Virus record (IMG/VR): IMGVR_UViG_3300003541_000003
Location: 3,297-67,296 of that record
Strand: one strand, 5' to 3'
Source: a virus
Taxonomy: Duplodnaviria; Caudoviricetes
DNA: 64,000 nucleotides
Below are positions 2 through 47,964 of this stretch, piece by piece. Position 1 is the first letter of the stretch. Each line of letters opens with the position of its first letter. The position numbers and the translations under genes were made by a program. The notes beneath the pieces are model-generated. The model was not told the DNA's origin. It did no database searches and saw only the letters and a program-made list of their open reading frames with translations.

Positions 2-835
2 CCCCAATTTGGTTTCAGTAGAGACTTACGCACAAACAAGCTCTCACCTTTCCATAGCCGTGAGGCTCTTTCTATCGCTATGGAATTGGCAGATTACCTA
101 CAACCAGATGTATCGGTGTGGCTCGGAGATGTGAATGACTTTACCATGTGGACGGATAAATTCGTCAGGAATCCTGAGTATTACTTTACCGTCCAGCCAG
201 CCCTCATTGAAGCGGCATGGGTCATAAATCAGATTCATGCGCTCTCTAGTGAGTCTGTGGTGATTGAGGGAAATCACGACCAGAGACCACAGATTGCCAT
301 GACCACACATTTGCTGGATGCGTATAACCTACGACCAGCAGACAACATTGATGCAGAGGCAGTTTTATCGGTGGACAACTTGCTGGGGTTGAATCGGATG
401 GGGGTAAAGTATATCGGGGATTGGCAGAACGCAAATTATCATCTCAATAAAAATCTACAATGCACACATGGCAATATCGCTCGTGGTGGTACGCTGGCAA
501 CGGCAAGAGCCATGCTCGACAATCAGGCTATCTCTACCATTTTTGGACACATTCACCGTACCGAGATGGCAAGCAAGACGCTTGTAAATGGAGGCACTAA
601 GACGGTTACGGCTTTCTGCCCAGGGTGTTTATGTAAAACTGATGGAAGTGTTCCTGGCTCGAACAGAGAGGTTCAATGGCAACAGGGTCTCGCTGTGGTC
701 TACTATACAGACGAGGCTTACTCGATTGTGCCATTGCAGATTGAGAATGACACGGTGTTATTCGATGGGATTTTCTTCAAGGCGCATGACTACATGCCAG
801 AACTTAAGAAGTCAACTACTTGGGAGAATTGGTAA
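2..835 (+). CDS. Calcineurin-like metallophosphoesterase (5' end outside window)
   Basis: Frame is open from base 2 (PQFGF...). Motifs GDVND, GNHD, THG, FGHIHR. Confidence 0.85.
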   Translation, partial: PQFGFSRDLRTNKLSPFHSREALSIAMELADYLQPDVSVWLGDVNDFTMWTDKFVRNPEYYFTVQPALIEAAWVINQIHALSSESVVIEGNHDQRPQIAMTTHLLDAYNLRPADNIDAEAVLSVDNLLGLNRMGVKYIGDWQNANYHLNKNLQCTHGNIARGGTLATARAMLDNQAISTIFGHIHRTEMASKTLVNGGTKTVTAFCPGCLCKTDGSVPGSNREVQWQQGLAVVYYTDEAYSIVPLQIENDTVLFDGIFFKAHDYMPELKKSTTWENW

Positions 836-2148
836 TGATAGAATCAAGTTATAAAGACATGGGTAAGGAATACGAGTTTCAAACTTTTATCAGAAAGTAT
901 GCCCCTAAGAATGGTAAGAAATTTGTGGCTGGACAGTCCCATATTCCCGTAACGAAACAGCAGATTACGATGGGGGATAAGATGAACATGATTGAGGCAG
1001 TCCTCAAAGGCTGGCTCACGGAGGGGGAGTACGCAGACCGCTTTGCAAAACAACTCTCGCAGGTAGCAGAGAAACGCTTTGTAACTCTGGCTAATTCAGG
1101 CTCTAGTGCAAATCTTCTGGCAATGCTGGCTATGGCTGAGGCTAATAGAGCAATTGGGTCTCGTGATGTCATCACTTGCGCTACCGGATTCCCCACCACC
1201 GTCAATGCAATCATTCAGGCTGGCTTCTTTCCTAGATTTGTGGATGCTAATTCTCTGACGCTAAATTCTAGTGAGTGGCAAGTGTTGGAAATGATAAAAA
1301 GCCCTGAGGTTGCTGGAGTTATGCTGGCACACACTCTCGGCTTTCCTTTCCGTGAGGATTTGATTGCTGAGGAGTGCAGGAAACATGGAAAGTTTTTTGT
1401 GGTGGATTGCTGTGATGCTCTTGGCTCTGAAATTAACGGACATCCGGTGGGCTACTACGCAGACATCCACACCTATAGCTTTTATCCTGCTCACCACATC
1501 TCCACCGCAGAAGGTGGAGCAGTTGTAACACATGACCCCAAACTGGACAGGCTTATCAAGTCCTACCGTGATTGGGGTAGAGATTGCTGGTGCGGAACGG
1601 GAGTGGATAACACCTGCGGTTTGAGATTCACTCAGCAGTTCGGAGAGTTGCCTTTTGGATATGACCATAAGTACGTCTATTCCAGAATTGGTTACAACCT
1701 GAAAATGACTGACCTTCAAGCCTCTCTTGGGGAATCTCAGATACACAGGTTGAAAGACTTTACGCAAGTTAGACGCATGAACACCATGAAGTTGAGAGAG
1801 GGTCTCAGAGACCTGAACCATCGGATATTCTTCCCTGAGTATCCTGCTGAGACCAATCCCAGCCCCTTCGGATTCCCCATCACCTTCTTGGCTGGAGAAA
1901 CTAAGAAACGGAATGACCTAGTAACCTTCCTGACCAAGCGTAACATTGGCACTCGTCCTGTGTTCGCTGGAAACCTCACTCGTCAGCCAGCTTACATTGA
2001 TGCTGGATTTGTATTTGATGATTTCCCGTTGGATGATGCTGACTACATCATGAACAATACTTTGTGGATTGGGTGTCATCCATCTCTGACGGATGAAATG
2101 ATTACTTATATGATTGAGAGTGTCCAAGACTTTTTCAAAGGAGAATAG
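835..2148 (+). CDS. rfbH: CDP-4-keto-6-deoxyglucose 3-dehydrase (E1, DdhC/RfbH type; PMP and [2Fe-2S])
   Basis: DegT/DnrJ fold motifs NSGSSANL and DCCDALG. SFYPAHH has His at the usual Schiff-base Lys position. Fe-S segment GRDCWC..DNTC..YDHKY. Start placed at the TAATG overlap at 835 (track start 820). Confidence 0.9.
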   Translation: MIESSYKDMGKEYEFQTFIRKYAPKNGKKFVAGQSHIPVTKQQITMGDKMNMIEAVLKGWLTEGEYADRFAKQLSQVAEKRFVTLANSGSSANLLAMLAMAEANRAIGSRDVITCATGFPTTVNAIIQAGFFPRFVDANSLTLNSSEWQVLEMIKSPEVAGVMLAHTLGFPFREDLIAEECRKHGKFFVVDCCDALGSEINGHPVGYYADIHTYSFYPAHHISTAEGGAVVTHDPKLDRLIKSYRDWGRDCWCGTGVDNTCGLRFTQQFGELPFGYDHKYVYSRIGYNLKMTDLQASLGESQIHRLKDFTQVRRMNTMKLREGLRDLNHRIFFPEYPAETNPSPFGFPITFLAGETKKRNDLVTFLTKRNIGTRPVFAGNLTRQPAYIDAGFVFDDFPLDDADYIMNNTLWIGCHPSLTDEMITYMIESVQDFFKGE

Positions 2149-2149
2149 C

Positions 2150-3103
2150 ATGAAAAGAAATGTTTTTATAACTGGCATCACCGGACAGGATGGTTCGTAT
2201 CTGGCTGAACAGCATCTTCTCAGGGGAGATAATGTGCATGGTCTCGTCCGCAGAAATTCCACAAACAACTTGGGAAACATTGAGCACATCAAGGATAGGC
2301 TGGAGCTTTTTGAGGGAGACCTGACTGACCTTAGTGGACTTCGAGAAACTCTCAAACTGATACAACCAAATTACGTTTATAATCTTGCGGCTCAGTCGCA
2401 TGTGGGAACGTCCTATGACCTTCCTGACTACACGATGCAAGTAACGGGTATGGGAGCAATGAATCTCTTTCAGGCTGTGTGGGACATCTGCCCTGAGGCG
2501 CATGTATATCAGGCATCGTCCAGCGAGATGTTTGGACTTACCTCTGGTGGTACGTTTGGACAGAACGAGATGACCAAGTTTGACCCCATCTCTCCATACG
2601 CAGTTGCTAAAATGGCGGCTCACCAGATGGCACATATCTGGCGCAAGCGTGGTCTGTGGGTATCCTGTGGCATCCTGTTCAACCATGAGTCCGAGCGTAG
2701 GGGGGATAAATTCCTGACATCGAAGGTTGCGAAAGCGGCGGCTCGTAGAGAACCTGTAGTGCTTGGCAATCTAACAGCAATTCGAGATTGGGGCTATGCT
2801 CCTGAGTACACCGAGGGCATGACGATGATGCTGGAACATCCTGTGCCTGACGACTTTGTTCTGGCAACAGGAAAGACTTGCTCGGTGAATGATTTTGTGG
2901 AGTTATGCTACGAGGCTATGGGGTTGAATTGGTTGCAGTATGTAACCATCTCGGACGAATTCAAGCGTCCTGTGGAGACTGCTCCCTTAAAAGGAGATGC
3001 CACCAAAGCACATCATGTACTCGGATGGCATCATAAGACGGATGTGGATGGTCTGGCTACTCGAATGGTTGATTACTTCCGTACAACTCAGCCCAACGAC
3101 TAG
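2150..3103 (+). CDS. gmd: GDP-mannose 4,6-dehydratase
   Basis: ITGITGQDGSYLAE, YNLAAQSHV, QASSSEMFG, SPYAVAK, GILFNHES, RDWGYA. RBS GGAG precedes the ATG at 2150. Confidence 0.93.
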   Translation: MKRNVFITGITGQDGSYLAEQHLLRGDNVHGLVRRNSTNNLGNIEHIKDRLELFEGDLTDLSGLRETLKLIQPNYVYNLAAQSHVGTSYDLPDYTMQVTGMGAMNLFQAVWDICPEAHVYQASSSEMFGLTSGGTFGQNEMTKFDPISPYAVAKMAAHQMAHIWRKRGLWVSCGILFNHESERRGDKFLTSKVAKAAARREPVVLGNLTAIRDWGYAPEYTEGMTMMLEHPVPDDFVLATGKTCSVNDFVELCYEAMGLNWLQYVTISDEFKRPVETAPLKGDATKAHHVLGWHHKTDVDGLATRMVDYFRTTQPND

Positions 3104-3629
3104 GTAATACTTTCCAGCCACACAAGGCACAAACCAGAGACGAGGCGGCATTTGGGGCTATCTGTTTTTTCCAGAAGTCCTCGCCCCTCGTCTTTCCATT
3201 TCCAAAGACCTTCTTGCGGATTGAGGATGGGGGCATACAGATTACCTCAAATCCTTTCTCGGACATAGCCAGCATAGCAGAGGCACGAGCCTCAGCCAGT
3301 TGGGTTTGACCGTAAACCTCTCCATGACTGCTACCTTCCACAAGAGCAAATCCTGTAGAACGATGGATACACTCTTTGACTGCCTGACCTACATACTCCA
3401 TTCTGGTAATGGGGTTCTCTGACTGATTGAGTAGAAACTCAAAACTTCGAGTGATGTCTTTCTCAATAATGGTAAGTCCCATGTGTCTGCTACCAGGGTC
3501 TATGCCTACCACCAATGGGTAGGCATTTGACCATTTCATCTTGAACCTCTCCAGCAACTCAGGCGTGTCCTGTTCATGCACCGTTACGGTGTAGTTAGGG
3601 AAGGTGAGAGGTAAGGAGACCTTTATCAT
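3057..3629 (-). CDS. ruvC: RuvC-like Holliday junction resolvase (C-terminal acidic pair substituted)
   Basis: VVGIDPG, VEG, PSSIRKKVFGNG. NAASSL stands where DxxDAL is expected. Confidence 0.75.
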   Translation of the reverse strand: MIKVSLPLTFPNYTVTVHEQDTPELLERFKMKWSNAYPLVVGIDPGSRHMGLTIIEKDITRSFEFLLNQSENPITRMEYVGQAVKECIHRSTGFALVEGSSHGEVYGQTQLAEARASAMLAMSEKGFEVICMPPSSIRKKVFGNGKTRGEDFWKKQIAPNAASSLVCALCGWKVLPSRWAELYGSNQPFE

Positions 3630-4543
3630 TTGGTCTCCTTATCAAAGTTGGCAAGAGCATCTTTGAAAGGAACGAACACGGCATCTTGACCATCCTGAGC
3701 CTGAGCAAACAGCTTGGATATGAACCCATAACTATCGTCTCCCATTTTGATGACACGCTCCCGTTTGGCGATTCCGAGGTTTACACAATCAAAGACTGCG
3801 GATAGACCTGTATGGAATCCCTTACCGGAGAGATAGCACATTTGGAAAGTCTTATCTTCAACTCCCCAACGATTCTTCTCCAGCTTGCCTTCAATGAGGT
3901 ATGAACCATCATCGAATCCTTCCACCCTGCGGAGACGGATGCGAAGGCTTGCCAAAAACTTCTTGGCTGTACCGCCTGTGGTCTCACTTCCCCGACCCCC
4001 GATGATTTGGGAGAGATGGGAGATGACAAACACCACCGTTGGCGTTTCCTTGTTCCTGAGGACGTTTTGGATGCGCCTAGAAAACTGCGCTGTGATGTGT
4101 GCTCTACGACCCATGTTTGCCTCACCCATTTCTCCAGATGTTTCAGAGATTGGTGAGATTGCTCCAACCGAGTCTAGGATGCCCACATGCACATCTTCTC
4201 TGGCAATCACGGTAGCAAGGTGAGTAACGAATTCCTCGTCTGTATCTCCCTTGGCAATCTCAACTGTGCCATCGAATCCTGCATTCCGCATGATGTCCTG
4301 CATGTACTCAGGGTCAAGGGTTTCCAGAGCACCTACACAAATTGTTCCATTCGGAAATAGCCGAGACGAGATGTCCCAGCAGAAGGTAGACTTACCCACA
4401 CCTTCGTACCCATATAACTCAATGATGGTTCTGAGAGGAAAGCCACGCTCTCCTCTGCCATTCTGCAAGGCTCGGTCAAGAGACCAGAACCCTGTTTGCA
4501 CACGTTCAATGCTTGGTAATTTTCCGACAAGTGTTATAGGCAT
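3626..4543 (-). CDS. recA: RecA/UvsX-like recombinase
   Basis: RTIIELYGYEGVGKST (Walker A), ILDSVGA (Walker B), TTGGTAKKFLASLRIRL, EKNR. Confidence 0.9.
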   Translation of the reverse strand: MPITLVGKLPSIERVQTGFWSLDRALQNGRGERGFPLRTIIELYGYEGVGKSTFCWDISSRLFPNGTICVGALETLDPEYMQDIMRNAGFDGTVEIAKGDTDEEFVTHLATVIAREDVHVGILDSVGAISPISETSGEMGEANMGRRAHITAQFSRRIQNVLRNKETPTVVFVISHLSQIIGGRGSETTGGTAKKFLASLRIRLRRVEGFDDGSYLIEGKLEKNRWGVEDKTFQMCYLSGKGFHTGLSAVFDCVNLGIAKRERVIKMGDDSYGFISKLFAQAQDGQDAVFVPFKDALANFDKETK

Positions 4544-5217
4544 TATTCCCTCGAAATTCCTGCGCTAGAGCAGATGCGCTCGATAGCTTTTTTGGTTACT
4601 TCCAAATCGGTATCCACTTCGAGATACCCCAGCGAATAGGTCTGACCATTGCTGTATGCAATTAGGTCTCCATTTCGTTTCAACTGAATCGTAATGCCAC
4701 CCTTGCGAGGGGATTGACCCTTGATGTCTCTCAGGATGCCCCGAATGGTTGCATCGTCTGGAGCATTTGCTAACTCCTGCCATTCCTCGTCCTCTACCTC
4801 AAAGCCTTGTTCAAGCGTCTTTGCCATAGGGATAAGGGATTTCATGGGCTTGTTCTGGAGTTTATTGGATAGCTCCGCAGGGGTGAGGTTCTCTGCGAAC
4901 ATACCCCACACTCCCACGTAACGATTTATAGTTAACTTTGATATGCCGAGGACATCATAGAGGACATCCTCATAGGTGTCTGACACATCATACTCATGCC
5001 AATCTCGTTTCAGCATGTAGAGCAGTTTGGCTAGAGCAAGTCCACTCATGCGAAAGTTGGTGATATACAACTTTGCTCTGTCAAGGATGACCATGACATC
5101 TCCACTTGACTTAGCGTCATTATAGAAGGTGTCAATTTCTTCCAGCACAGGTTTGGGGTCAAACCGAATGGGCTGGTCGAGTGCGGAAACCAATTCCTCA
5201 TCTTGTGATTTAGACAT
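4543..5217 (-). CDS. Hypothetical protein, possible HTH (LGISKLTINRY)
   Basis: ORF coupled to recA. GGAG RBS precedes the ATG at 5217. Confidence 0.7.
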   Translation of the reverse strand: MSKSQDEELVSALDQPIRFDPKPVLEEIDTFYNDAKSSGDVMVILDRAKLYITNFRMSGLALAKLLYMLKRDWHEYDVSDTYEDVLYDVLGISKLTINRYVGVWGMFAENLTPAELSNKLQNKPMKSLIPMAKTLEQGFEVEDEEWQELANAPDDATIRGILRDIKGQSPRKGGITIQLKRNGDLIAYSNGQTYSLGYLEVDTDLEVTKKAIERICSSAGISRE

Positions 5218-5455
5218 CTGCGTTCTCCTTTGCAATCCAAAAGAATGTAGCGACAATTATTTCTCGAACATCATCGTCCGAGATGGGACATGTGCCATCC
5301 CCATTCCTATCACGCCACCGTGCCCACATCTCCATCTTGATGTCATGAATCGCATCGTCCAACTTTTGCTGTTCTTTGTGATTCAGGGTAGCGTAATAGT
5401 CATTGAAAAATTCGAGCTTTGATGGACTGATAGGTACAAGTTGTTCTATGGTCAT
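5210..5455 (-). CDS. Hypothetical protein
   Basis: 81-aa ORF in a tightly overlapping operon. Confidence 0.65.
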   Translation of the reverse strand: MTIEQLVPISPSKLEFFNDYYATLNHKEQQKLDDAIHDIKMEMWARWRDRNGDGTCPISDDDVREIIVATFFWIAKENADV

Positions 5456-5625
5456 TTGGTTTTATTCTCCTCTAAAACAATTTCTTTTACTTCTGACATG
5501 TTAATCCAGATGAAGGTTTCAGCTAGAACCATGAAAAAGACTGTGCCACTATCAAACATTTCATATCTCTTTGCTAGGTAATCCTTCTTTTCTCCATTTT
5601 TGTATAGGATAATTATGAAGTACAT
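5452..5625 (-). CDS. Small hypothetical protein (57 aa, MYFIIILYKNGEKK...), below the track cutoff
   Basis: Hand translated. Fills the gap exactly, with TGATG and ATGA overlaps at its ends. Confidence 0.65.
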   Translation of the reverse strand: MYFIIILYKNGEKKDYLAKRYEMFDSGTVFFMVLAETFIWINMSEVKEIVLEENKTK

Positions 5626-6209
5626 CAATTACCCCATTTCCCTGCTCGATAGAGCAGATTGATTAGAGCATACACCGCCATGTCCATGAGCGTGTCCTCA
5701 ATGGATTCATTCTTAGGCTCTTTGGGCTGGCTGAAATTCAGCAACTTTACTTCCAGATTGAATCCAGACAGGTTCATCAGACGAGCCATCTTGTCCCACA
5801 TGCGTGTAGCTAAACCTACCTCTCCTGTGCCAGCAATGTTCGCTGGGGAGTAGTCTGCATTCTTCTGGAGATGGACACGGTACATCTTTCCGAGTAGCTC
5901 ACGGAATGCTTGTGCCTGATTGGGACTCCGTATCTCGGTAAGATGTTTGGATTCGGGAACAGAAGGGTACTCATACACAGGGATTTCGAGAGATTCTGCA
6001 TATTTTCTTTCGGCACAGCAGTCTGCATCTGTAGTCCAATCAGGGAGCATTATCATCACATCACTTACAGCAATCAATTCCTTCCTTGCCTTATTTCCAG
6101 CAGAGGGTAGGAGGGTGCTATTACTGCACAACTCAATTTCTTCTTGAATGTCTCCTACATACTGACGATTGCTATATTCCTTCGTAGGAACAGACATATA
6201 GACTATCAT
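5625..6209 (-). CDS. DUF4406-like domain fused to DUF1599 (nucleotide-modification-associated) domain
   Basis: N-terminal SDVMIMLPDW..AERKYAESLEIPV. C-terminal KNADY..GLATRMWDKMARL..ESIEDTLMDMAVYA. Confidence 0.65.
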   Translation of the reverse strand: MIVYMSVPTKEYSNRQYVGDIQEEIELCSNSTLLPSAGNKARKELIAVSDVMIMLPDWTTDADCCAERKYAESLEIPVYEYPSVPESKHLTEIRSPNQAQAFRELLGKMYRVHLQKNADYSPANIAGTGEVGLATRMWDKMARLMNLSGFNLEVKLLNFSQPKEPKNESIEDTLMDMAVYALINLLYRAGKWGN

Positions 6210-6541
6210 TTCTTGCCTATATTCTTGAAGAATTCTTTTACAAGGGCATCTAGAGAACCAGAAACCTGCACCAATTCTCGTTTCTTTTCTACCATGTTGG
6301 GTTTTTCATCCAACGCCCCAGATTGCTCTGCGTAGTATGCCAGAGAGACAAGCCCCATGACATCGTCAGCAGTCTTTGTTCCAGAGAGCAACCATATCCA
6401 CATCTTGAACACCTCAGCGTACTCTGGTTTGTCTGCTGGAATCATCAACTCGAATTTCATTGCATCTGTGTCCATGAGCAGGACTGCATCCTGTTTGTTG
6501 AGCGTAATCACGACATTATCTTTTACTTCTGTTTTAGCCAT
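6206..6541 (-). CDS. Hypothetical protein
   Basis: 111-aa ORF with GGAG RBS; overlaps its neighbours. Confidence 0.7.
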   Translation of the reverse strand: MAKTEVKDNVVITLNKQDAVLLMDTDAMKFELMIPADKPEYAEVFKMWIWLLSGTKTADDVMGLVSLAYYAEQSGALDEKPNMVEKKRELVQVSGSLDALVKEFFKNIGKK

Positions 6542-7037
6542 ATAAACTCCTCTCTTTGATTATGTTGCAAAATTTGTAAATAGCCATAGAAAACTCGCCA
6601 TGACTACCTTGGATTAGACTGAGTGGATTAAGTGTTCCCATCACAAGAGGAGCACTCAGAAGGTCTGCCTTCATTGGAATCCCACTCACGGCTGTGGCTG
6701 TTAGCCCTGGAAAAAATGCGCCTACAACCTCAGAGCCTAGCATCAAGACTGCCTCTTTGCCAATAGCCTCTTGGATTGCCTGTTGCATGTGCCATTCACG
6801 TTCAGCCTCATCCTTTTTTACAATGTCGTGCAACCACAGGCATGTGTACCTCAGTTGAAAAAGGTCTACACCCCACTTCCCTAACTCCATTCGCATGATG
6901 TTTCCGTACACACCAGCGAAGGGGTATCCTGACTTTAAATCGTCAAGAGTCGGAGAGGGAGCAATCACAAGAATCTGTGATTTCTTATTACCTCTCGGTT
7001 GCACTATTCCTTTCTTACAAATTGGGCATTGTGCCAT
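6534..7037 (-). CDS. Family-4 uracil-DNA-glycosylase-like protein (SPO1 polymerase-associated type), degenerate
   Basis: CPIC..VQPRGNKKSQILVIAPSP..D..SGYPFAG..G..M..EL. Canonical GE(A/G)PG and HP motifs are altered. Start at the TAATG overlap at 7037. Confidence 0.65.
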   Translation of the reverse strand: MAQCPICKKGIVQPRGNKKSQILVIAPSPTLDDLKSGYPFAGVYGNIMRMELGKWGVDLFQLRYTCLWLHDIVKKDEAEREWHMQQAIQEAIGKEAVLMLGSEVVGAFFPGLTATAVSGIPMKADLLSAPLVMGTLNPLSLIQGSHGEFSMAIYKFCNIIKERSLYG

Positions 7038-7174
7038 TATTTCGTCCTGATAGCCTTTGCAATTTCTAACAGAGCAAAGACAATCGCTGATACCCACCAA
7101 TGAATTCGGGTACTGTCTCCTAATTCATTCCATGCACGTTCCAAACTATCTTCTACTTTAGTTTCATAGTCCAT
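7037..7174 (-). CDS. Small hypothetical protein (45 aa, MDYETKVEDS...)
   Basis: Hand translated. AAAGGAG RBS; first gene after the 7249-7276 promoter. Confidence 0.6.
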   Translation of the reverse strand: MDYETKVEDSLERAWNELGDSTRIHWWVSAIVFALLEIAKAIRTK

Positions 7175-7248: not shown

Positions 7249-7276
7249 ATTATACACCAGTTTGACACCGTGTCAA
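7249..7276 (-). promoter_or_regulatory. Sigma70-type promoter TTGACA-N16-TATAAT; -35 lies inside a perfect 15-bp palindrome
   Basis: Consensus hexamers read directly. TTGACACCGTGTCAA at 7262-7276. Confidence 0.8.
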
Positions 7277-12072: not shown

Positions 12073-12649
12073 TGATTTTTCCTGCTCTCTCCTGAATTGC
12101 TAATCTAGCCATCGTGAAATATTCAGGGTCTCTCTCGATGCCTATGTAACTCCGATGATTCAACGAACAGACCTCTCCAACTGTTCCTGAACCCATGAAG
12201 GGGTCTAACACCGTGTCAAATGGATTGGTGTGATTCAGGACAAGTCTGGTCATCAATGAGAGAGGTTTCTTATATGGATGTTCCTTGCTTTCCACGAGGT
12301 CAGTAAAGACGTTGGTATATTGCGACCAATGCCTGTCTGCATTCCACGTTCCATCACCAAACACCATAATCATCTCGACAAAGCGAGAGTAGGACTTGCT
12401 AGTGTTTTTGGTAGAGATAGGTTTGACCCAAAACAGAATTTGTTTCGCTCTTTCTGGAAACCATTGATTCTCTGGTGGGCAGAAAATAATGATATTGCCT
12501 TTACAAATGCGTTCAAATTCATTCTGATATAGCTTTTTAGTTACAAGGTCGAAATCATACGGTGGGTCTGTGATTATACAATCCACCGTTTTACTTCCCT
12601 TTTGTGTAACGTAATCCAGAGAATTCTGATTAAGTATTTGTAGAGTCAT
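12065..12649 (-). CDS. N6-adenine/N4-cytosine DNA methyltransferase, beta class
   Basis: IITDPPY (motif IV) precedes HPYKKP and VLDPFMGSGT (motif I). Confidence 0.92.
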   Translation of the reverse strand: MTLQILNQNSLDYVTQKGSKTVDCIITDPPYDFDLVTKKLYQNEFERICKGNIIIFCPPENQWFPERAKQILFWVKPISTKNTSKSYSRFVEMIMVFGDGTWNADRHWSQYTNVFTDLVESKEHPYKKPLSLMTRLVLNHTNPFDTVLDPFMGSGTVGEVCSLNHRSYIGIERDPEYFTMARLAIQERAGKIID

Positions 12650-18374: not shown

Positions 18375-18562
18375 CTTATTTTTCTCCTTTCGTAAAATGC
18401 CATTCAAGGCGTGATATGTGGGGTGCAGGGGTGGTAAATGTACGGAGTTTCCTCTTTCCGTAGGGGCATTCATTAACTCTACTGGAAGTCTTAGGAATTC
18501 TCCATTACGCAATAAATTTATCCCTTACAAATTACCCTGCACCCCAAGGGATAGTGCGTATT

Positions 18563-18641: not shown

Positions 18642-18662
18642 TTTCGACATTTTCATGTCTAG

Positions 18663-21413: not shown

Positions 21414-22049
21414 TTATTGCCAAATGTCATCCTGACCACCCTCACGCACAATTCCGAAGGGGTAGTTGGTCAGGTCAATATCGAAGTTTCCCTTTGTGGG
21501 GGTACTTGACACGGTGTCAATATTTTTCTTGACAGAGATACAATGATTCTCAAACGCATCCCCTTCCATCACATACTCACCAGCAAAGGGAATGAACATG
21601 AGGTAGGCAGACCGATGGCAATGTTTACAAACTCCGAGCATGAGATGATTGCCATGTTTTTTCGAGGAGAAGAATTTAACTTTATGCCCATCCATTCTTA
21701 ACTTCTCCTTTGCCTCACTCCGAGCAAGACCAGCATCCGAGAGTTTTTCTTTTCTCCAAGTATATGTACCACCATACACCCCTTGATATGTTCCATATCC
21801 AGAGTGATTATAGTAGTTGCTGTAAGGATTGTAGGTGTTAGGTTTCATGGTAGTTACTGCGCTTGCTGGTGTGGCATATAAAACCTTTGGAGCATACTTC
21901 TCGTTTGAAGTAGCAGGTATGGTATCGAACAGGATACCCCCTGCGGATGCTAACGGATTTTTGCCATCCATTAAAAGTTTCAAGTTTTCTGTTTTTCCTT
22001 CTGCAATGAAGGGTGTGTTAGTTATCTCCATCATCAGGTGCATTACCAC
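21414..22049 (-). CDS. Hypothetical protein with Tyr/Gly-rich middle
   Basis: 211-aa ORF; contains one palindrome copy. Confidence 0.65.
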   Translation of the reverse strand: MVMHLMMEITNTPFIAEGKTENLKLLMDGKNPLASAGGILFDTIPATSNEKYAPKVLYATPASAVTTMKPNTYNPYSNYYNHSGYGTYQGVYGGTYTWRKEKLSDAGLARSEAKEKLRMDGHKVKFFSSKKHGNHLMLGVCKHCHRSAYLMFIPFAGEYVMEGDAFENHCISVKKNIDTVSSTPTKGNFDIDLTNYPFGIVREGGQDDIWQ

Positions 22050-39709: not shown

Positions 39710-41512
39710 ATGCCGATTACAAAAGAAAAAGCTCCCAGCACGTTGCCCGATTCTGCAAAAGATTTATTTGTAGGAGCGTGGAATGGCGCATACGAAGGTA
39801 CATGCAAAGAGTCTGAAAGTCAGGATGAGCGTGATGCGTGTGCCAGCAAGATTGCGTGGTCTGCTGTGAAGAATAAGTATGCTAAAGGCGAAGATGGCAC
39901 ATGGCATGCCAAGGCAGACATTCTGAATGAGTTTTCTTTTGTTATCACGAAAGCAAGTATAGATAAATCCTCCGGTCAGATGCGCTGGATGGCAGTTGCC
40001 TCAGACACGGATGAAGATAGTTATAAGCAACGCATGTCCTTGGAACTGTTCAGCGATTTCATCACAAGAGCACAGCAGGATGTTGATGCACCAGTAGAGT
40101 TTCGGTCAGAATACTGGAAGGGTGGAATGCCCTACCTCTCTGTAAGCCACTACGATGATTTTAATGGTATGGGTTCTGCTGGAGAGACGGTCAATATTTA
40201 TATTGATGGAAACCGTCTAAAAGCAAAGGGGATTTGTTATGATACTCCTCTAGGTAGAGCGGCGTTCAATGCCATCAAGGAATCGCTTGACAATCCTAAT
40301 GAAGATAATAAGGTTCGCATTTCTATTGGGTTCTTGGATTGGAAACACACTCATAATGGTGTAACTTTTGAGCGCAAAAGCATTTATGATATATGTCCTG
40401 CATGTCGTAAAAGTAAAGAAAATGTGGTATTCTTAAGAGGGCAGTTGATTCATCTTGCTCTCACCAGAGTGCCTGTAAATCAGCGCACTACTATTGAAGC
40501 GGAGGTAACAAAGTCTATGACAACTAGGAAAGAGGATGCTGAATCCATTGTTGGTGCAGAAGAAGCCGAAAAGCTGGAAGAACTTTCTGTTGCAATGGTT
40601 GGCAAAAGCGAGGCTCTGGTGATTAAGGCAGATAGCCCCAATGAGCCAAATGACCCCCAAGAAGCTAATGATTTGATGGTAGATGGAAATGGTGCTCATA
40701 CCGGAACATCTACTGAGGATGTGCCAAATCCTGACACATCGGAGCAGGTAGACCGACCTAAGCAGGGTGAAGTTGCAAAGTCTGATGGAGAGGTTGCTTA
40801 TTCCTTGCCGTATGGTGGAGCTACTTCATTTGCAGAGGTAGAGGCATGGATGTCTGCTCAGGACAAACTGTACAAGGCGTATGACACTTGGTACACCTTT
40901 GAGACTTTAGCCTCAAATATTATGGGCAAAGAGGACATCGAGGACAAGCCGAAAGCGTTGGCTCAGCTTATGGCTGAGTGCAAGGACAAGCTCGAAACTA
41001 AGTCCTTTGCCATTATGGAAAAAATCGAAAAGGCTATGTTGGAAGGCGAGTCCTTCGTAACTAAGTCTGAGACACATCCTCTGGACGAGGCGTTTGCTCA
41101 GATGAAATCTGCCTTCGATAACACGGTGTCAAGTGAGATGCCGGATGAGGAAAAACTAATGGCTCTACAGCCAGCGTTGGACAATCTGGGAAATGTTCTG
41201 AGGGAATCAGTTAAGGCGCAAGCCGTTGTTACCGCAGACGAACCAGTACCGAGTATGGGTGTAGATGCCACTCAGTTGAAGGCAATCGTGGAAGATGTTA
41301 TTGCTCCGATTGCTGAAAAAGTGAATATACTTATGCAAGCGCAGTCAGCACAGGCTGGTCGGACAGTTGCCCCCCGCCAGGAAACCGTCCCTCAACGTAG
41401 GGGTCTCCCTGCTCAGTCTCCCCTGATTGCTAAAGCGTCCACAAGCGAGACTCCGAAGTTACACGAAATTGTGCTCCGGTCAGTCGGTCTTGGTGGAACA
41501 GAAAGACTGTAA
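39710..41512 (+). CDS. ChaB domain + HK97-type prohead protease + scaffold
   Basis: N-terminal LPDSAKDLF..AWNGAY..KIAWSAVKNKYAKGEDGTW (ChaB); SHY and ISIGF protease motifs; acidic helical C-terminus. Confidence 0.8.
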   Translation: MPITKEKAPSTLPDSAKDLFVGAWNGAYEGTCKESESQDERDACASKIAWSAVKNKYAKGEDGTWHAKADILNEFSFVITKASIDKSSGQMRWMAVASDTDEDSYKQRMSLELFSDFITRAQQDVDAPVEFRSEYWKGGMPYLSVSHYDDFNGMGSAGETVNIYIDGNRLKAKGICYDTPLGRAAFNAIKESLDNPNEDNKVRISIGFLDWKHTHNGVTFERKSIYDICPACRKSKENVVFLRGQLIHLALTRVPVNQRTTIEAEVTKSMTTRKEDAESIVGAEEAEKLEELSVAMVGKSEALVIKADSPNEPNDPQEANDLMVDGNGAHTGTSTEDVPNPDTSEQVDRPKQGEVAKSDGEVAYSLPYGGATSFAEVEAWMSAQDKLYKAYDTWYTFETLASNIMGKEDIEDKPKALAQLMAECKDKLETKSFAIMEKIEKAMLEGESFVTKSETHPLDEAFAQMKSAFDNTVSSEMPDEEKLMALQPALDNLGNVLRESVKAQAVVTADEPVPSMGVDATQLKAIVEDVIAPIAEKVNILMQAQSAQAGRTVAPRQETVPQRRGLPAQSPLIAKASTSETPKLHEIVLRSVGLGGTERL

Positions 41513-44422: not shown

Positions 44423-45144
44423 ACCTTTCAGTTATTCTGCTCAACTACAATTCCTCGGAATGGCTATCCAAGAGTTTGCTGGAAGTCATTAATCATGCTC
44501 CAGTTGAGGGAGTGGAAATTATCGTTGTGGATAATGGTTCAACGGATGAGGACTTCCTAGTGATGTTTGAATGGTGGAAGAAATACAAATCCATTCAGCC
44601 TATCCGATTTGTGAAAGCCCCAAAGAATCTCGGATTCTGTGGTGGGATGAATTTTGGAGTTGAGTATGCCAAAGGAAAGAATATCTTTCTTCTGAGCAAC
44701 GATGTCATTGTAAAAAGCAAGAACGTATTTACTGATGTCATTGATATGCTGGAGGGAAATGATAAGCTCCTTCTAGGTGGGCGCATCATTGATTGGGATA
44801 GTGGTTGGAACACCTACCCCAATCAAGGTCATGTCTACACGATTCCCTACTGTGAAGGCTATGCTCTCGCTATGAGCAAGAAAGCGTGGGAGGAGTTGGG
44901 TGGATTCGATGACAAATTTTATCCACATGATTTCGAGGACATGGATTTATCCATGACTGCTATGGAGCATGGGTTTACCCTCGCTCAAATGGACTCAGCA
45001 TATCTGTTCCATAACTGTGCAGGAACGGTGAAGTATGGTGTGGAACGTGAGGCAATCACGCTGAACAATCAAGCCAAGTTTGTAATCAAGTGGTTAGGCA
45101 AATTACCAGAAATGGTGGATAAAGGAGTAATATGCAGAAAATAA
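44413..45144 (+). CDS. Glycosyltransferase family 2
   Basis: SVILLNYN, VVDNGSTD, NLGFCGGMN, LSND, GGFDDKF..FEDMD. Confidence 0.9.
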   Translation: MELDLSVILLNYNSSEWLSKSLLEVINHAPVEGVEIIVVDNGSTDEDFLVMFEWWKKYKSIQPIRFVKAPKNLGFCGGMNFGVEYAKGKNIFLLSNDVIVKSKNVFTDVIDMLEGNDKLLLGGRIIDWDSGWNTYPNQGHVYTIPYCEGYALAMSKKAWEELGGFDDKFYPHDFEDMDLSMTAMEHGFTLAQMDSAYLFHNCAGTVKYGVEREAITLNNQAKFVIKWLGKLPEMVDKGVICRK

Positions 45145-46046
45145 AAGTAGTAATTTCTGGAATATTCTATCCGGTAACAATGATGGAATATTTTATTAGG
45201 GCGTTTGAGCGCAGAGAGGACGTTGAGCTAAAAACGGCTGGTTCGTTCTCTGGAGCATACATTCCTTGGAATGGTGGCATGTACATCAACCAGAAGTACG
45301 TCCGCACTCCAGACATCTGTTTGCCTTTTCCACCTCAACCGACTGACCCAACGTATGTTGAGAAGAAGTTGCCTTGGAAACCTGATTTGTGGATTCAGGT
45401 AGACGCTGGATGGCACTTCTCTCGCAGACCGGAGGCTACGAAATCTGTGGGAATTGCAACTGACCCTCATGTGCTGAATTATGACCCTCTCCGTGCTACT
45501 TCCGATATTTTATTCAATATGCAACTTGTATACAAACAGCCCTCAGATGTATACCTTCCCTATGCGTATGACCCTATGCTCCACAAGCATATCAAGGTGG
45601 AGACAGAATATGATGCTTGCCTAATTGGGTTGCAATACACTCAAAGACAGCAATTGATTGACGCTCTCCGCAGGGACTCTATATCTGTAAATCAGGATAT
45701 TGGAAAGGTCTACGAGGAGTTTGTACTGGCATATAACAAGAGTAAGGTTGCCCTCAACTGGTCGAGTTTGGATGACCTAAACGCTCGAACTTTCGAGGCT
45801 ATGGGAATGGGCATTCCTCTGGTAACGAACCGTGTAACAGACCTAAGCAACTTCTTCGTAGAAGGTGAACACTATCTTGGTTTCAATGACATCCCTGAGG
45901 CGATTATACAGGTGAAGAAAGTTTTAGATAACCCTGAGGAGGCTGAACACATGGCTCGTTCTGCTCATCGAAAAGCAAAAGCTGGGCATACTTACGACAT
46001 TCGAGTATCGCAAATCTTGGATAGGTGTGGTTATGGAAAACTTTAA
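45132..46046 (+). CDS. CgeB/YkvP-like glycosyltransferase (GT-B)
   Basis: YLPYAYDP, YNKSKVALN, LNARTFEAMGMG, HTYDIR. Confidence 0.8.
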   Translation: MQKIKVVISGIFYPVTMMEYFIRAFERREDVELKTAGSFSGAYIPWNGGMYINQKYVRTPDICLPFPPQPTDPTYVEKKLPWKPDLWIQVDAGWHFSRRPEATKSVGIATDPHVLNYDPLRATSDILFNMQLVYKQPSDVYLPYAYDPMLHKHIKVETEYDACLIGLQYTQRQQLIDALRRDSISVNQDIGKVYEEFVLAYNKSKVALNWSSLDDLNARTFEAMGMGIPLVTNRVTDLSNFFVEGEHYLGFNDIPEAIIQVKKVLDNPEEAEHMARSAHRKAKAGHTYDIRVSQILDRCGYGKL

Positions 46047-46350
46047 TATCATTCATAATGCTGGTACTCCTGATAAGGCTAAACTTCCGAATGGACGCTG
46101 GGTTCACCGAGAAGAAAAACTCTTTATCGTAGAGATGAAGAAGTTTGTGATATGCGCTCCCTATGATAATCACTTTATTTATGAAACGAAGATTCCGCAG
46201 ATGGCATCCTTTATGTGTACCTGTGGAGCACCTGCCGTAATCATTGGCTCGAACCAGTATAAACAGGATGCCTCTCCTACTGATACCGGAGAGTTGTTCG
46301 TCTGTTTCTTCCATGCCTCTACTGGCAAGCATGCGGATGGCACTACATGA
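46027..46350 (+). CDS. Hypothetical protein (Cys/His motifs)
   Basis: FMCTCG..VCFFH; inside the GT block. Confidence 0.65.
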   Translation: MVMENFNIIHNAGTPDKAKLPNGRWVHREEKLFIVEMKKFVICAPYDNHFIYETKIPQMASFMCTCGAPAVIIGSNQYKQDASPTDTGELFVCFFHASTGKHADGTT

Positions 46351-46940
46351 AAAGTCCTTGGATGAGGCTAAAGAAAAATTTAGAAATCCTGAGGGATGAC
46401 ATCTATCCTCAACCTATGGACATCGGGCACATGCGCTGGACTGCACGAGCAATCTGCATGATGAAGCCCCATATAGGAGATGTGGGAAATGTGTTGGATG
46501 TTGGCTGTGGAGTTGGCTATGCCGAAAAGTGGTTCAGGAGAATTGGTATAACTGATTATGTAGGAGTGTCTCTTGGGGAGGATGTCTCTGTAGCAGTAAA
46601 CAGGGGTCTATGGGTATATGAGAATGATTTTCATTTCCTTCCTTGGCAGGATGGAGATTTTGACATGATATTCTCTAGGCATTCCTTGGAACACTCTCCT
46701 ATGCCTCTGCTGGCTCTTATGGAGTGGCATCGAGTCTCAAATAAATATCTCGGTCTGGTTCTACCTAATCCCGAACATTGGGGCTGGGCAGGACGAAACC
46801 ACTACAGCGTTATGAATCAGACTCAGATTGAATTTTTACTGGAGGTAGCTGGCTGGGTTGTGGTCATGAAGAATGTAGAAATTCCAGAAGAATTTATCTA
46901 TCTATGTAAAAAGAAATCGGAGGAGAAAATTGAAAATTGA
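46347..46940 (+). CDS. Class I SAM-dependent methyltransferase
   Basis: VLDVGCGVG, DFHFLPW.DGDFD, SRHSLEH. Confidence 0.85.
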   Translation: MKSPWMRLKKNLEILRDDIYPQPMDIGHMRWTARAICMMKPHIGDVGNVLDVGCGVGYAEKWFRRIGITDYVGVSLGEDVSVAVNRGLWVYENDFHFLPWQDGDFDMIFSRHSLEHSPMPLLALMEWHRVSNKYLGLVLPNPEHWGWAGRNHYSVMNQTQIEFLLEVAGWVVVMKNVEIPEEFIYLCKKKSEEKIEN

Positions 46941-47964
46941 TATATTGGCAACACATGGAAGTCCTCTAGGAGTTACTTCTCAGTCTATCTATGGAGAGGA
47001 CGGACGCATGGGAGTAGGTGGAGCAGAGTTAGCTCTCCTGACCATGTGTGAAGGATGGGCACATGCTGGTCATGAGATAACCCTGTATAACAATCCTTCG
47101 CAGGTAGATTCTTTGAAGTTTAACCAGCAACGATTAGCAACATTCAACCCAAAACAGGATAGAGATTTTCTAATCGTCTTTAGAGCACCAACCTCCTTAG
47201 CGGCTGGAGCAAAGGGAAAGCAAATTTGGTGGAGTACCGACCAGTACACAATTGATGATTATGCTGTTTTTGGAAAGCGTGTGGATAAGATTGTGTGTAT
47301 TAGCCCATATCATCAGGAGTATTTTAAGCAACGCTATGGCTTGAATAACACGGTGTCAATTGACCTGCCTGTGAGACAATGGGACTATGAGCAGGAAATT
47401 GAGCGGATTCCTTTCCGGTGTTTATTCTCATCTGTTCCAGATAGAGGTCTGGATAACATGCTTATGCTGTGGAATGACATCAAGGATGCAATTCCAGAAG
47501 CCAGCTTGATGATTACCTCAGACTATAGATTGTGGGGATGCCCCTCACCTGGGAATGAGAGATTTAGGATGAGGTCAATGAACCTCCGAGATGTAACTTT
47601 TGCTGGTGCTCTTTACCGCATAGATTTTGTGAAAGAACAACTCAGAGCAGATGTGCTGACATATCCCTGTACCTATGAGGAGTTGTTCTGCTATGCAGTA
47701 GCCGAGGCAGAGATGGCTGGAGCAATGCCCTTTACAACTACTCTGGGAGCATTGCCTACAACCAATATGGGATACCTATTCAACTTTGCTGAGTTTAGTT
47801 TCAAACGTCATAGAGATTTGTATGTCGCAAATTTGGCAAAATTCTTATATGACAAAGATAAGGAAAAGCAGAGGTCAGAGTTACAAGAAAAAGCCTTTAG
47901 CAGATTTGCTTTGCCGTTTATAATGGAGCAATGGGATAAATTAGTTTTTGAGGAGGATAAATAG
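46930..47964 (+). CDS. Glycosyltransferase family 4-like
   Basis: GVGGAE, SSVPDRGL, YPCTYEELFCYAVAEAEMAG. Confidence 0.85.
   Translation: MKIDILATHGSPLGVTSQSIYGEDGRMGVGGAELALLTMCEGWAHAGHEITLYNNPSQVDSLKFNQQRLATFNPKQDRDFLIVFRAPTSLAAGAKGKQIWWSTDQYTIDDYAVFGKRVDKIVCISPYHQEYFKQRYGLNNTVSIDLPVRQWDYEQEIERIPFRCLFSSVPDRGLDNMLMLWNDIKDAIPEASLMITSDYRLWGCPSPGNERFRMRSMNLRDVTFAGALYRIDFVKEQLRADVLTYPCTYEELFCYAVAEAEMAGAMPFTTTLGALPTTNMGYLFNFAEFSFKRHRDLYVANLAKFLYDKDKEKQRSELQEKAFSRFALPFIMEQWDKLVFEEDK

What the first reader, a model, noticed from the sequence alone, without database searches (positions are those of the whole stretch)
747..47359. Ten copies of a 13-15 bp palindrome (TRACACSGTGTYA) on promoters and inside genes
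Seen: copies start at 747, 7262, 12205, 21506, 27159, 29577, 31316, 32059, 41118 and 47345; three are the perfect TTGACACSGTGTCAA. Rough expectation at equal base frequencies is about 0.01 copies per 64 kb. One copy contains the -35 of the 7249-7276 promoter, one fills the spacer of the 27148 promoter, one lies ~50 nt downstream of the leftward 31.4-kb promoter, and one sits between the terS RBS and ATG. The seven intragenic copies all read (D/N)-T-V-(S/L) in otherwise unrelated proteins, so the DNA motif appears to shape the protein. Known: mycobacteriophage L5 uses dispersed 13-bp stoperators; parS and matS are dispersed palindromes. This motif matches neither consensus as I know them. Inference: a genome-wide operator/roadblock, partition or packaging-site system with an unidentified binder. 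Candidates are 31484-31834, 4543-5217 and the DUF5659-like protein, or a host protein.
Basis: partly seen in the sequence, partly recalled or inferred. Interest (0 to 1): 0.85.

Follow-up and report, generated by a model that had tools for sequence, protein, structure and literature searches.

The report
Dispersed phage palindrome, ParB-like binder
A 13-bp palindrome repeated ten times across this 67-kb phage genome is real, is conserved in related and even unrelated phages, overlaps key promoters, and is most likely the binding site of an unstudied phage protein that resembles the DNA-binding part of ParB/KorB.

Summary
TRACACSGTGTYA occurs exactly 10 times, against 0.002-0.009 expected, and no copy in the window has 1-2 mismatches.

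The sites are under DNA-level selection. Relatives keep them at the same places inside diverged flanks. More distant relatives carry lineage variants: AAACACSGTGTTT x10, TTACACSGTGTAA x4, AAACAGWCTGTTT x7. Three sites lie on or within about 50 nt of three of the window's six near-consensus sigma70-type promoters. One overlaps a -35 that is conserved in five phages.

The only non-structural, non-sugar protein shared by the three motif-bearing complete genomes is window 4543-5217(-), 224 aa. It is absent from two motif-less complete genomes. It has no Pfam or PHROG match. Its model has an HTH core that repeatedly, but weakly, matches KorB, SopB, ParB and VirB DNA-binding domains, and it lacks the CTPase domain.

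Independently, unrelated 59-67% GC phages with the same GACACNGTGTC core encode a true ParB_N+HTH_ParB protein in the same position next to RecA.

No ParA, integrase or Tet/JBP gene was found.

Best reading: a KorB/OB-like operator network of a CTPase-less ParB-type binder in a probably virulent phage. Binding and function are inferred, not shown. I class it as a new variant of a known kind.

The parts
748..760 (.). Site 1, TGACACGGTGTTA. It lies in the 3' end of a 470-aa gene, about 60 nt upstream of the DegT aminotransferase start (820).
   Evidence: The same place is occupied in relative L041.
7263..7275 (.). Site 2, perfect 15-mer TTGACACCGTGTCAA. It is intergenic after the PolA gene, and its TTGACA is the -35 of the leftward promoter.
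   Evidence: The site plus -10 is the only conserved block of this spacer in G000, L041, L042 and L044. It is also present in L053.
7249..7276 (-). 12/12 consensus sigma70-type promoter (TTGACA-16-TATAAT). It heads the tightly packed leftward gene run 7100..3057, which includes the candidate binder, the RecA-like gene and the RuvC-like gene.
12206..12218. Site 3, TAACACCGTGTCA. It lies inside the N6/N4 DNA methyltransferase gene and encodes the DTVL of the ..DTVLDPFMGS.. motif.
   Evidence: An identical site is present in the L041 orthologue while the flanking third codon positions differ.
21507..21519 (.). Site 4, perfect 15-mer, inside a 211-aa gene of unknown function.
27160..27172 (.). Site 5, TGACACCGTGTTA. 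It fills the spacer of the rightward promoter at 27148..27176.
   Evidence: site centre at -17. G003 site 70086 has the same placement, in a TTGACA-16-TATAAT spacer.
27148..27176 (+). 11/12 promoter, TTGACA-17-TATTAT with TG.
29578..29590 (.). Site 6. It starts 2 nt after the ATG of an 89-aa gene (M-T-D-T-V-S).
31317..31329 (.). Site 7. It is centred about +47 of the leftward consensus promoter, in an 870-bp stretch without a convincing ORF.
31377..31405 (-). 12/12 consensus leftward promoter. It stands back to back with the 12/12 rightward promoter 31420..31447, which heads the HNH-terS-terL-structural genes.
32060..32072 (.). Site 8, perfect 15-mer. It covers the last codons of the HNH gene, between GAAAGGA and the ATG (32074) of the small terminase.
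   Evidence: The SD-site-ATG arrangement is conserved in L042. G003 has a site 6 nt before an ATG upstream of terL, and G002 has one at the terL start.
41119..41131 (.). Site 9, inside the 600-aa head-module gene (F-D-N-T-V-S).
   Evidence: The orthologous position carries TTGACACGGTGTTT in L006, L007 and L008, with variable third codon positions around it.
47346..47358 (.). Site 10, inside a GT4-type glycosyltransferase gene.
4543..5217 (-). Candidate binder, 224 aa. It has an HTH core (residues about 58-111 within a ParB/KorB-like helical domain, about 54-168) and a C-terminal three-strand sheet plus helix. It has no ParB_N domain.
3057..4543 (-). RecA-like gene (3626-4543) and RuvC-like resolvase gene (3057-3629), immediately downstream of the candidate. 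This neighbourhood is conserved.

Best explanation
The ten palindromes are duplex-DNA binding sites for a dimer of a phage-encoded protein, window 4543-5217(-). This protein is a divergent, CTPase-less relative of the ParB/KorB DNA-binding domain.

Proposed mechanism:
- The protein is transcribed from the promoter at 7276..7249, whose -35 lies inside a site, so it would repress its own operon.
- It would also occlude the promoter at 27148 (site in the spacer).
- It would sit just downstream of the leftward 31405 promoter and just ahead of the terminase genes.
- The intragenic copies would act as secondary binding or roadblock sites.

Together this makes a KorB/OB-like global control network in a probably virulent phage.

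Shown: the sites exist, are under DNA-level selection and overlap promoters; the protein's phyletic pattern and fold are compatible with this role.
Inferred: that this protein binds the sites, and that binding represses transcription.
For: 1. Non-random and all-or-none: 10 copies against about 0.005 expected, with no 1-2-mismatch copies in the window.

2. Conservation in relatives.
- L041 has sites at the same three places as G000.
- The post-PolA promoter with its -35 inside the site is kept in G000, L041, L042, L044 and L053, while the surrounding spacer cannot be aligned.
- Intragenic site 41119 is orthologous in L006, L007 and L008, with variable third codon positions around it.

3. Lineage variants keep the architecture: G003 has 10x AAACACSGTGTTT, L013 has 4x TTACACSGTGTAA, L050 has 5x AACACSGTGTT, and G002 has 7x AAACAGWCTGTTT.

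4. Promoter overlap. In G000, 3 of 10 sites lie within 70 nt of the 7 strongest promoter matches; 0 of 2000 random placements reached this. G003 also has a spacer site.

5. Phyletic profile.
- The 224-aa protein is the only non-structural, non-sugar protein shared by G000, G002 and G003.
- It is absent from motif-less G001 and G004 by hmmsearch --max.
- G003 keeps it although it has no detectable homologue of G000's PolA, DnaB-like helicase or RecA-like protein.

6. Fold.
- AF2 model pLDDT 89.6.
- The best VIA match is KorB 8qa8 (Z 5.6, rmsd 2.9 A over 95 residues). SopB scores 5.1, KorB DBD 1r71 4.9, VirB 4.7 and ParB-parS 4.6. Sigma region 4 and DeoR HTHs match residues 58-111.
- The Foldseek top hit is P1 ParB-DNA (E 0.04).
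- The ESM Atlas structure rows are ParB/SopB_HTH families.
- hhalign aligns residues 57-166 with the DNA-binding domain (153-249) of a phage ParB family (P 0.0014).
- Both families share a G-L-H-P-x-x-[IV]-x-R ... P-[DE]-[DE]-[IV] pattern.

7. Independent convergence.
- An exact 15-mer scan of IMG/VR found multi-copy contigs only in unrelated 62-66% GC phages.
- One of these, G008, encodes a true ParB_N+HTH_ParB protein directly after a RecA-like gene, with a site in the gap between them.
- Homologues of that ParB on 142-kb and 144-kb contigs have the same synteny and carry GACACSGTGTC or TTGACACAGTGTCAA sites.

8. RNA hairpins of the motif are no more stable than shuffled sequence. This fits recognition of duplex DNA.
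Against: - No binding data exist.
- The ParB/KorB resemblance is weak: Z is at most 7, hhalign probability is 17%, and Pfam KorB, HTH_ParB and ParB_N give no hit in G000 even at E <= 10.
- G000 and G003 share the ACACSGTGT core although their candidate proteins are only 22% identical.
- Some contigs with a homologue show no clear motif or only one copy in the 7-21 kb fetched: L051, L049, L046 and L052.
- G007 has 9 sites but neither protein in the 58% of the genome held.
- The gene always sits in a recombination module (UDG, RecA, RuvC), which could point to a non-transcriptional role.
- Three other strong promoters (18923, 22304, 31420) have no site.
- Most small ORFs are unannotated, so another phage binder is possible.
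Confidence: 0.5

Rival explanations
1. The same protein-site pair exists, but its main job is not transcription. The sites would be loading or organising points for phage DNA, coupled to recombination-dependent replication, condensation or marking of phage DNA. Promoter overlap would be secondary.
For: In every relative the gene sits with UDG, RecA-like and RuvC, EndoVII or exonuclease genes. The full-length phage ParB occupies the same slot. Six to seven of the ten sites are intragenic and are spread at 2-9 kb intervals. G000, G002 and G003 all have a site-free stretch of about 20-30 kb over the tail genes.
Against: The protein has no CTPase domain for sliding or spreading. The best-conserved sites are the promoter ones. 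The size of the largest gap alone is not significant (own estimate, p about 0.36 for G000).
Confidence: 0.2
2. A conserved host DNA-binding protein recognises the palindrome, and the phages exploit it. One example would be a widely conserved factor that reads GACAC-type half-sites. The WhiA GACAC motif is recalled from memory only.
For: The identical 15-mer occurs in multiple copies in phages with unrelated gene content and very different G+C: 43% in G000 against 62-66% in G007, G008 and G015. G007 carries 9 sites without either candidate gene in the part held.
Against: The flanks, and in G002 the core, change between phage lineages. This is what co-evolution with a phage-borne binder would produce. 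G+C from 35 to 67% implies very different hosts. Both phage groups carry a ParB-type candidate in the same gene neighbourhood. The host is unknown, so host sites could not be counted. A scan of bacterial genomes found no homologue of the candidate.
Confidence: 0.13
3. The sites are packaging (pac/cos), replication-origin or site-specific nicking signals used by the terminase/HNH or replication machinery.
For: A site abuts the terS start in G000 and L042 and lies at the terminase genes in G003 and G002. An HNH endonuclease gene precedes terS.
Against: Ten dispersed, strand-symmetric copies, several inside core promoters, do not fit a single pac/cos or origin. L044 has no site at terS. TerL and its neighbours are also present in motif-less G001 and G004.
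Confidence: 0.06
4. The sites are targets of a sequence-specific DNA modification, by the phage C5 or N6/N4 methyltransferase or a hypermodification pathway that uses the many glycosyltransferases.
For: The phage encodes a C5-MTase, an N6/N4-MTase, a sugar-nucleotide pathway and five glycosyltransferases. ParB-like activators of phage thymine dioxygenases are known (PMC13229309).
Against: No Tet/JBP dioxygenase is present in G000, G002, G003, G007 or G008. Those activator ParBs lack a DNA-binding domain, the opposite of this protein (PMC13229309 abstract). G000's N6/N4 methyltransferase has no homologue in G002 or G003. A 13-15 bp target is atypical for methyltransferases (established knowledge).
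Confidence: 0.05
5. Plasmid-prophage centromere (parS/sopC-like) sites for partition.
For: The candidate has a ParB-type fold. Dispersed palindromic centromeres are known in N15 (recalled from memory).
Against: No ParA-type ATPase (AAA_31, CbiA) is found in G000, G002 or G003, and no tyrosine integrase. The candidate has no ParB_N domain. The gene set looks virulent.
Confidence: 0.03
6. The motif acts as an RNA or single-strand DNA hairpin, for example a translational operator at terS or a hairpin promoter.
For: The SD-palindrome-ATG arrangement before terS is conserved in G000 and L042, and a hairpin could shorten the 17-nt SD-ATG distance. In G015 the motif is the tip of 27-31 bp palindromes.
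Against: Folding energies are -2 to -6 kcal/mol with z about 0, and in two of four contexts the palindrome is not in the best fold. The C and G flanking the centre stay complementary although they would lie in the loop. Sites in promoter spacers are not transcribed from those promoters.
Confidence: 0.03

Closest known systems
KorB and its OB operators on plasmid RK2 (ParB-family global repressor)
   Same: An odd palindrome with a central G/C: the OB core is TTTAGCGGCTAAA in the oligo given in PMC11790492. Multiple copies are dispersed over one replicon. Some are promoter-proximal and others are up to >1 kb from any promoter (PMC11790492, Main). The regulator's DNA-binding domain is the best fold match here. 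The regulator's own operon would be under site control (inferred here).
   Different: KorB has a CTP-binding N-terminal domain, slides as a clamp, partners with IncC/ParA and KorA, and serves plasmid partition. The phage protein has no ParB_N or KorB Pfam match, no ParA and a different sequence motif, and some of its sites overlap the -35 or the spacer. The figure of 12 OB sites is from my memory, not from a tool.
Chromosomal and plasmid ParB-parS (Spo0J, P1 ParB, SopB, VirB)
   Same: A dimeric HTH domain reads an inverted repeat built on CAC/GTG. Weak fold and profile similarity cover the same domain. True ParB_N+HTH_ParB proteins sit in the same gene slot in other phages that carry the same core motif.
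   Different: Canonical parS (TGTTNCACGTGAAACA, from memory) has an even centre, CACGTG, and that hexamer is absent from this genome. There is no CTPase domain and no ParA. The sites are spread genome-wide rather than clustered.
Stoperators of mycobacteriophage L5 (gp71 sites)
   Same: A 13-bp site repeated many times over a phage genome, partly overlapping a -35 (TGTCAA/TTGACA) and partly within transcription units.
   Different: L5 sites are asymmetric and oriented with transcription, and they belong to the immunity repressor of a temperate phage (established knowledge). Here the site is a perfect palindrome, no integrase or immunity cassette was found, and the candidate binder is unrelated.
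MatP-matS of enterobacteria
   Same: A 13-bp odd palindrome containing TGAC/GTCA, dispersed in about 20 copies.
   Different: In the matS consensus GTGACRNYGTCAC (from memory) TGAC lies one base nearer the centre. MatP is a host protein of gamma-proteobacteria. This phage's ribosome-binding sites and its GH25+SH3 endolysin point to a Gram-positive host.

Membership tests
ParB/KorB superfamily (for the candidate binder 4543-5217) | N-terminal ParB_N (CTP-binding, GERRxRA) domain | tested here: not met
   PF02195 gives no hit in G000, G002 or G003 at E <= 1-10. The profile of phage ParBs does not hit G000 under hmmsearch --max. The model has only helices before the HTH.
ParB/KorB superfamily (for the candidate binder 4543-5217) | ParB/KorB-type HTH DNA-binding domain | tested here: inconclusive
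   Fold: KorB Z 5.6-6.4, ParB 4.6-7.0, SopB 4.8-5.1, VirB 4.7, rmsd 2.7-3.6 A over 93-108 residues. Foldseek: P1 ParB, E 0.04. hhalign: DBD to DBD, P 0.0014, probability 17%. Pfam PF17762 and PF08535 give no hit.
ParB/KorB superfamily (for the candidate binder 4543-5217) | C-terminal dimerisation domain | tested here: inconclusive
   The model ends in a three-strand sheet plus helix (residues 176-219, pLDDT about 90). The P1 ParB alignment spans 187 columns at high rmsd. No oligomer model was possible.
ParB/KorB superfamily (for the candidate binder 4543-5217) | Cognate inverted-repeat site present on the same replicon | tested here: met
   Ten palindromes in G000. There are 7-10 in G002 and G003, which carry homologues, and none in G001 and G004, which lack them. 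That the protein binds them was not testable.
ParABS partition system | ParA-type Walker ATPase partner | tested here: not met
   PF13614 and PF01656 give no hit in G000, G002, G003, G007 or G008, while all 14 control genomes hit.
KorB/OB-type global operator network | Short palindromic operator in many dispersed copies, both promoter-proximal and distal | tested here: met
   Three sites lie at -27, -17 and +47 of strong promoters; the rest lie 0.6-16 kb from one.
KorB/OB-type global operator network | Site-dependent repression by the cognate protein | not testable with these tools
   Needs reporter assays, EMSA or ChIP.
L5-type stoperators | Asymmetric site oriented with transcription, bound by an immunity repressor of a temperate phage | tested here: not met
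   The site is a palindrome. The central base shows no strand bias in G000: 6 G and 4 C. No tyrosine integrase was found and no ParA.
Canonical parS / matS | Match to the consensus TGTTNCACGTGAAACA or GTGACRNYGTCAC | tested here: not met
   CACGTG occurs 0 times in the genome. The motif has an extra central base relative to parS, and its TGAC lies one base further from the centre than in matS. Both consensus sequences are from my own knowledge.

The most novel reading that the evidence does not exclude
A large, unnamed family of about 220-aa phage proteins (514 clusters at 50% identity) would be CTPase-less descendants of an orphan phage ParB. Together with full-length orphan ParBs of large high-GC phages, they would read a parS-like site widened by one base pair (ACAC-N-GTGT). 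They would use 7-13 dispersed copies as a genome-wide silencing or timing network in virulent phages, working like KorB but without a clamp. One possible mechanism is a repressor that is titrated as the genome replicates.
Probability: 0.35. Interest if true: 0.8.

Novelty: new variant of a known kind. Interest (0 to 1): 0.62.

Why it matters
Dispersed, strictly conserved palindromes turn up in many phage genomes and are rarely explained.

This case offers four things:
- a concrete site-protein pair that can be tested with one EMSA;
- a protein family of more than 500 sequence clusters that has no name;
- a link to the ParB/KorB world, where long-range gene silencing is a current topic;
- natural specificity variants (TGACAC, AAACAC, TTACAC, GGACAC, AAACAG) that could show how ParB-type domains change their target.

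If the reading holds, it would show how a virulent phage with host-type consensus promoters controls them without a sigma factor or RNA polymerase of its own. It would also give orthogonal operator-repressor pairs for engineering.

Tried and rejected
- Close cultured relatives: none. Megablast against INPHARED found nothing. The best terL hits are 28% identical. The phage ParB has only about 30% hits to Gordonia and Staphylococcus ParB-like genes.
- Candidate 31484-31834: no PHROG, Pfam or Atlas lead, and the wrong phyletic pattern.
- Other small ORFs: forty further ORFs were scanned in Pfam or PHROGs and none matched a DNA-binding family.
- Sequence route to ParB/KorB: the profile against PDB sequences gave only noise. 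Pfam on 47 family members gave no family.
- RK2 record: not in the plasmid collection, so KorB could not be aligned directly.
The metagenome scan gave one short contig. The bacterial-genome scan gave none.
- Host search by 'relatives': not possible for a virus record, so host-site enrichment was not tested.
- Literature: no paper in the library contains the motif in a relevant context. DUF3102, an Atlas lead, is not discussed anywhere useful.
- Tet/JBP-ParB hypermodification: rejected because no dioxygenase is present.
- RNA hairpin: rejected on folding energies.

Full report
**What the window is.** The window covers bases 3297-67296 of a 67,296-bp virus record. The record's two ends overlap by 66 bp, and it is classed as complete with terminal repeats.

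The left arm is transcribed leftward and carries a replication and recombination module:
- family-A DNA polymerase, 7494-9212
- DnaB-like helicase, 10924-12072
- primase, 15194-16117
- N6/N4 methyltransferase and C5 methyltransferase
- RecA-like gene, 3626-4543
- RuvC-like gene, 3057-3629

The right arm carries a GH25+SH3 endolysin, an HNH gene, terS, terL (32591-34111), head and tail genes, and a sugar-nucleotide and glycosyltransferase set.

No tyrosine integrase, ParA-type ATPase or Tet/JBP dioxygenase was found. Strong AGGAG ribosome sites and the endolysin type suggest a Gram-positive host, but the host is unknown. The nearest cultured phages share only about 28% terL identity.

TRACACSGTGTYA occurs exactly ten times, at the reported places.
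- 100 shuffles gave no copy, and Markov models of order 1-4 expect 0.002-0.009.
- The set is all-or-none. The window has no copy with one or two mismatches, although 2.6 are expected.
- Every ACACSGTGT in the genome is a full site. CACWGTG and CACGTG are absent.
- One single-mismatch copy lies outside the window.
- Half-sites come in two forms, TTGACAC (11) and ATAACAC (5), plus 4 others (read).
- The frame claim is right: seven intragenic copies read [DN]TV[SL].

Part of the frame bias is forced. One frame contains TGA/TAA, and another would encode Cys with Pro/Arg. Relatives show the same avoidance: G002 sites read KQ[ST]V in 4 of 4 cases, and G003 sites read NTV[FL] five times and KHGV twice.

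**The sites are under selection as DNA.** TerL relatives from IMG/VR and homologue-bearing contigs from other assemblies give a graded series.

Closer relatives:
- L041 has sites at the same three places as G000: before DegT, after PolA, and inside the methyltransferase gene. They are identical within flanks that differ at third codon positions.
- The intergenic spacer after PolA cannot be aligned among G000, L041, L042 and L044, except for TTGACACSGTGTYA and a -10 at fixed distance. L053 has the same site.
- The GAAAGGA-site-ATG arrangement before terS recurs in L042.
- Intragenic site 41119 is at the orthologous position in L006, L007 and L008, where neighbouring codons vary.

More distant genomes keep the architecture but change letters:

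| Genome or contig | Copies | Motif |
|---|---|---|
| G003 | 10 | AAACACSGTGTTT |
| L013 (7 kb) | 4 | TTACACSGTGTAA |
| L050 (21 kb, 54% GC) | 5 | AACACSGTGTT |
| G002 (35% GC) | 7 | AAACAGWCTGTTT |

The two complete terL relatives G001 and G004 have no such family.

Intragenic sites are not orthologous between G000 and G003, yet each genome has ten.

**Relation to transcription.** The window has six near-consensus sigma70-type promoters.
- Three carry a site: in the -35 (7276), in the spacer (27148) and at about +47 (31405).
- No random placement of ten sites reached three hits in 2000 trials.
- G003 also has a site filling a TTGACA-16-TATAAT spacer, and L044 has a second -35 site.

Occupancy at these positions would exclude RNA polymerase. 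That is an inference from promoter geometry.

The 7276 promoter heads a tightly packed leftward gene run that contains the candidate binder, so autoregulation is plausible.

RNA hairpins of the motif are weak and no better than shuffles. The bases next to the centre stay complementary in all lineages. Both points argue for a dimer reading duplex DNA.

**The candidate binder.** Among all G000 proteins, those shared with both G002 and G003 but absent from G001 and G004 are virion parts, sugar enzymes and one other protein: window 4543-5217(-), 224 aa. Sensitive profile searches confirm this pattern. G003 keeps the protein although it has no detectable homologue of G000's polymerase, helicase or RecA-like protein.

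The family:
- It is large: 514 clusters at 50% identity, all about 220 aa.
- It has no Pfam or PHROG match.
- In every fetched contig the gene lies next to, or within about 1.2 kb upstream of, a RecA-like gene.

Structure. The model (pLDDT 89.6) shows a helical domain with an HTH at about residues 58-111, and a C-terminal sheet plus helix.

Fold and profile searches:
- VIA-align returns KorB, SopB, VirB and ParB DNA-binding domains for residues about 54-168: Z 4.6-5.6 with the better model and up to 7.0 with the first.
- Foldseek's first hit is the P1 ParB-DNA complex.
- The ESM Atlas structure rows are ParB/SopB families.
- A profile-profile comparison aligns residues 57-166 with the DNA-binding domain of a phage ParB family (P 0.0014, probability 17%).

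Each of these is weak by the tools' own standards, and Pfam KorB, HTH_ParB and ParB_N models do not match. I therefore treat 'ParB/KorB-like DNA-binding domain without the CTPase domain' as likely but not established.

**An independent line of evidence.** I scanned IMG/VR for the exact 15-mer. It found 65 loci, and only three contigs held several copies: G007 (9), G008 (4) and G015 (3). All are 62-66% GC and unrelated to G000 in gene content. G007 has a T4-like tail sheath.

These contigs lack the 224-aa family. However, G008 encodes a true ParB_N+HTH_ParB protein directly after a RecA-like gene, with a site in the 100-bp gap between them.

Homologues of that ParB on 142-kb and 144-kb contigs show the order UDG-PolA ... 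RecA - ParB - exonuclease and no ParA. They carry CTGGACACSGTGTCCAG three times, or TTGACACAGTGTCAA once.

So two unrelated phage groups share three features: an ACAC-N-GTGT palindrome family, a RecA-adjacent gene slot, and a ParB-type or ParB-like protein in that slot. The two protein families also share a G-L-H-P-x-x-[IV]-x-R ... P-[DE]-[DE]-[IV] pattern at the HTH. This raises my confidence that the 224-aa protein is the binder. The same data could also fit a very conserved host factor.

**Weak points.**
- Binding has not been shown.
- Some contigs with a homologue show no clear site, or only one, in the 7-21 kb available: L046, L049, L051, L052.
- G007 lacks both proteins in the 58% of the genome held.
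- Three strong promoters carry no site.
- The conserved recombination neighbourhood leaves room for a role in DNA organisation or recombination-dependent replication rather than transcription.
- G003's sites have an unexplained asymmetry: C is the central base in 9 of 10, and a TTTTCTC extension lies on one strand whatever the gene direction.

**Comparison with known systems.** The closest functional analogue is KorB with its OB operators on RK2. That system uses an odd palindrome with central G/C, in dispersed proximal and distal copies, read by a ParB-family regulator (PMC11790492). The system here differs in four ways: no CTPase clamp domain, no ParA or KorA partner found, a different sequence, and a host replicon that is a probably virulent phage.
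- It is not an L5-type stoperator set, because the site is symmetric and no lysogeny genes are present.
- It matches neither canonical parS nor matS.
- The ParB-dependent thymine dioxygenase systems of phages (PMC13229309) are excluded. No dioxygenase is present, and those ParBs lack the DNA-binding domain.

**Verdict.** This is a real, conserved, promoter-linked palindrome network with a specific, testable candidate binder. I class it as a new variant of a known kind. Interest is 0.62.

Noticed in passing
G003 (L023-L026) sites at 1729-70086: All ten G003 sites share one orientation on the + strand: central C in 9 of 10, and an extension GTGTTTTCTC in about 6. This holds although the genes around them run on both strands. 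A polar feature on a palindrome is unexplained.
   Followed up: partly
G002 (L031-L034), 7 sites from 12211 to 52489: A relative at 35% GC uses a different core, AAACAGWCTGTTT, with the same architecture and a site at the terL start. It is a natural specificity switch.
   Followed up: partly
G015 (L125) 3717 and 8228: In a 62% GC contig the same 15-mer is the centre of perfect 27-bp and 31-bp palindromes.
   Followed up: no
window 47359-64000 plus genome 1-4043: There are no sites over the tail-gene module (about 20 kb). G003 (20.7-40.7 kb) and G002 (52.5 kb, through the end, to 12.2 kb) have the same site-free stretch over their tail genes.
   Followed up: partly
window 30610-31483: An 870-bp stretch has no convincing ORF. 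It lies downstream of a 12/12 consensus leftward promoter that stands back to back with a 12/12 rightward promoter, which suggests a possible non-coding RNA region.
   Followed up: no
window 820-3103, 34530-36762, 43601-49940: A sugar-nucleotide pathway is spread through the late genes: NTP transferase, 4,6-dehydratases, 3,5-epimerase-like, RmlD-like and DegT aminotransferase, plus about five glycosyltransferases. G002 and G003 share it; G001 and G004 do not.
   Followed up: partly
whole genome: CACGTG occurs 0 times in 67 kb, and CACWGTG also 0 times. This may reflect avoidance of a restriction site or of near-cognate sites.
   Followed up: no
window 18562-18736: There is a tRNA-Arg(TCT) and, next to it, an ARAGORN 'tRNA-???' with a two-base anticodon call.
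   Followed up: no
L044 4340-6658; L050 6214-8652: Relatives carry inteins in the DnaB-like helicase (with LAGLIDADG) and in the family-A polymerase. G000 does not.
   Followed up: no
window 13063-13599: The 178-aa protein matched only a PHROG of unknown function here, but the same-length gene at the corresponding place in L041 carries a Thy1 (ThyX) Pfam hit. Phage-made modified or extra pyrimidine supply is possible.
   Followed up: no
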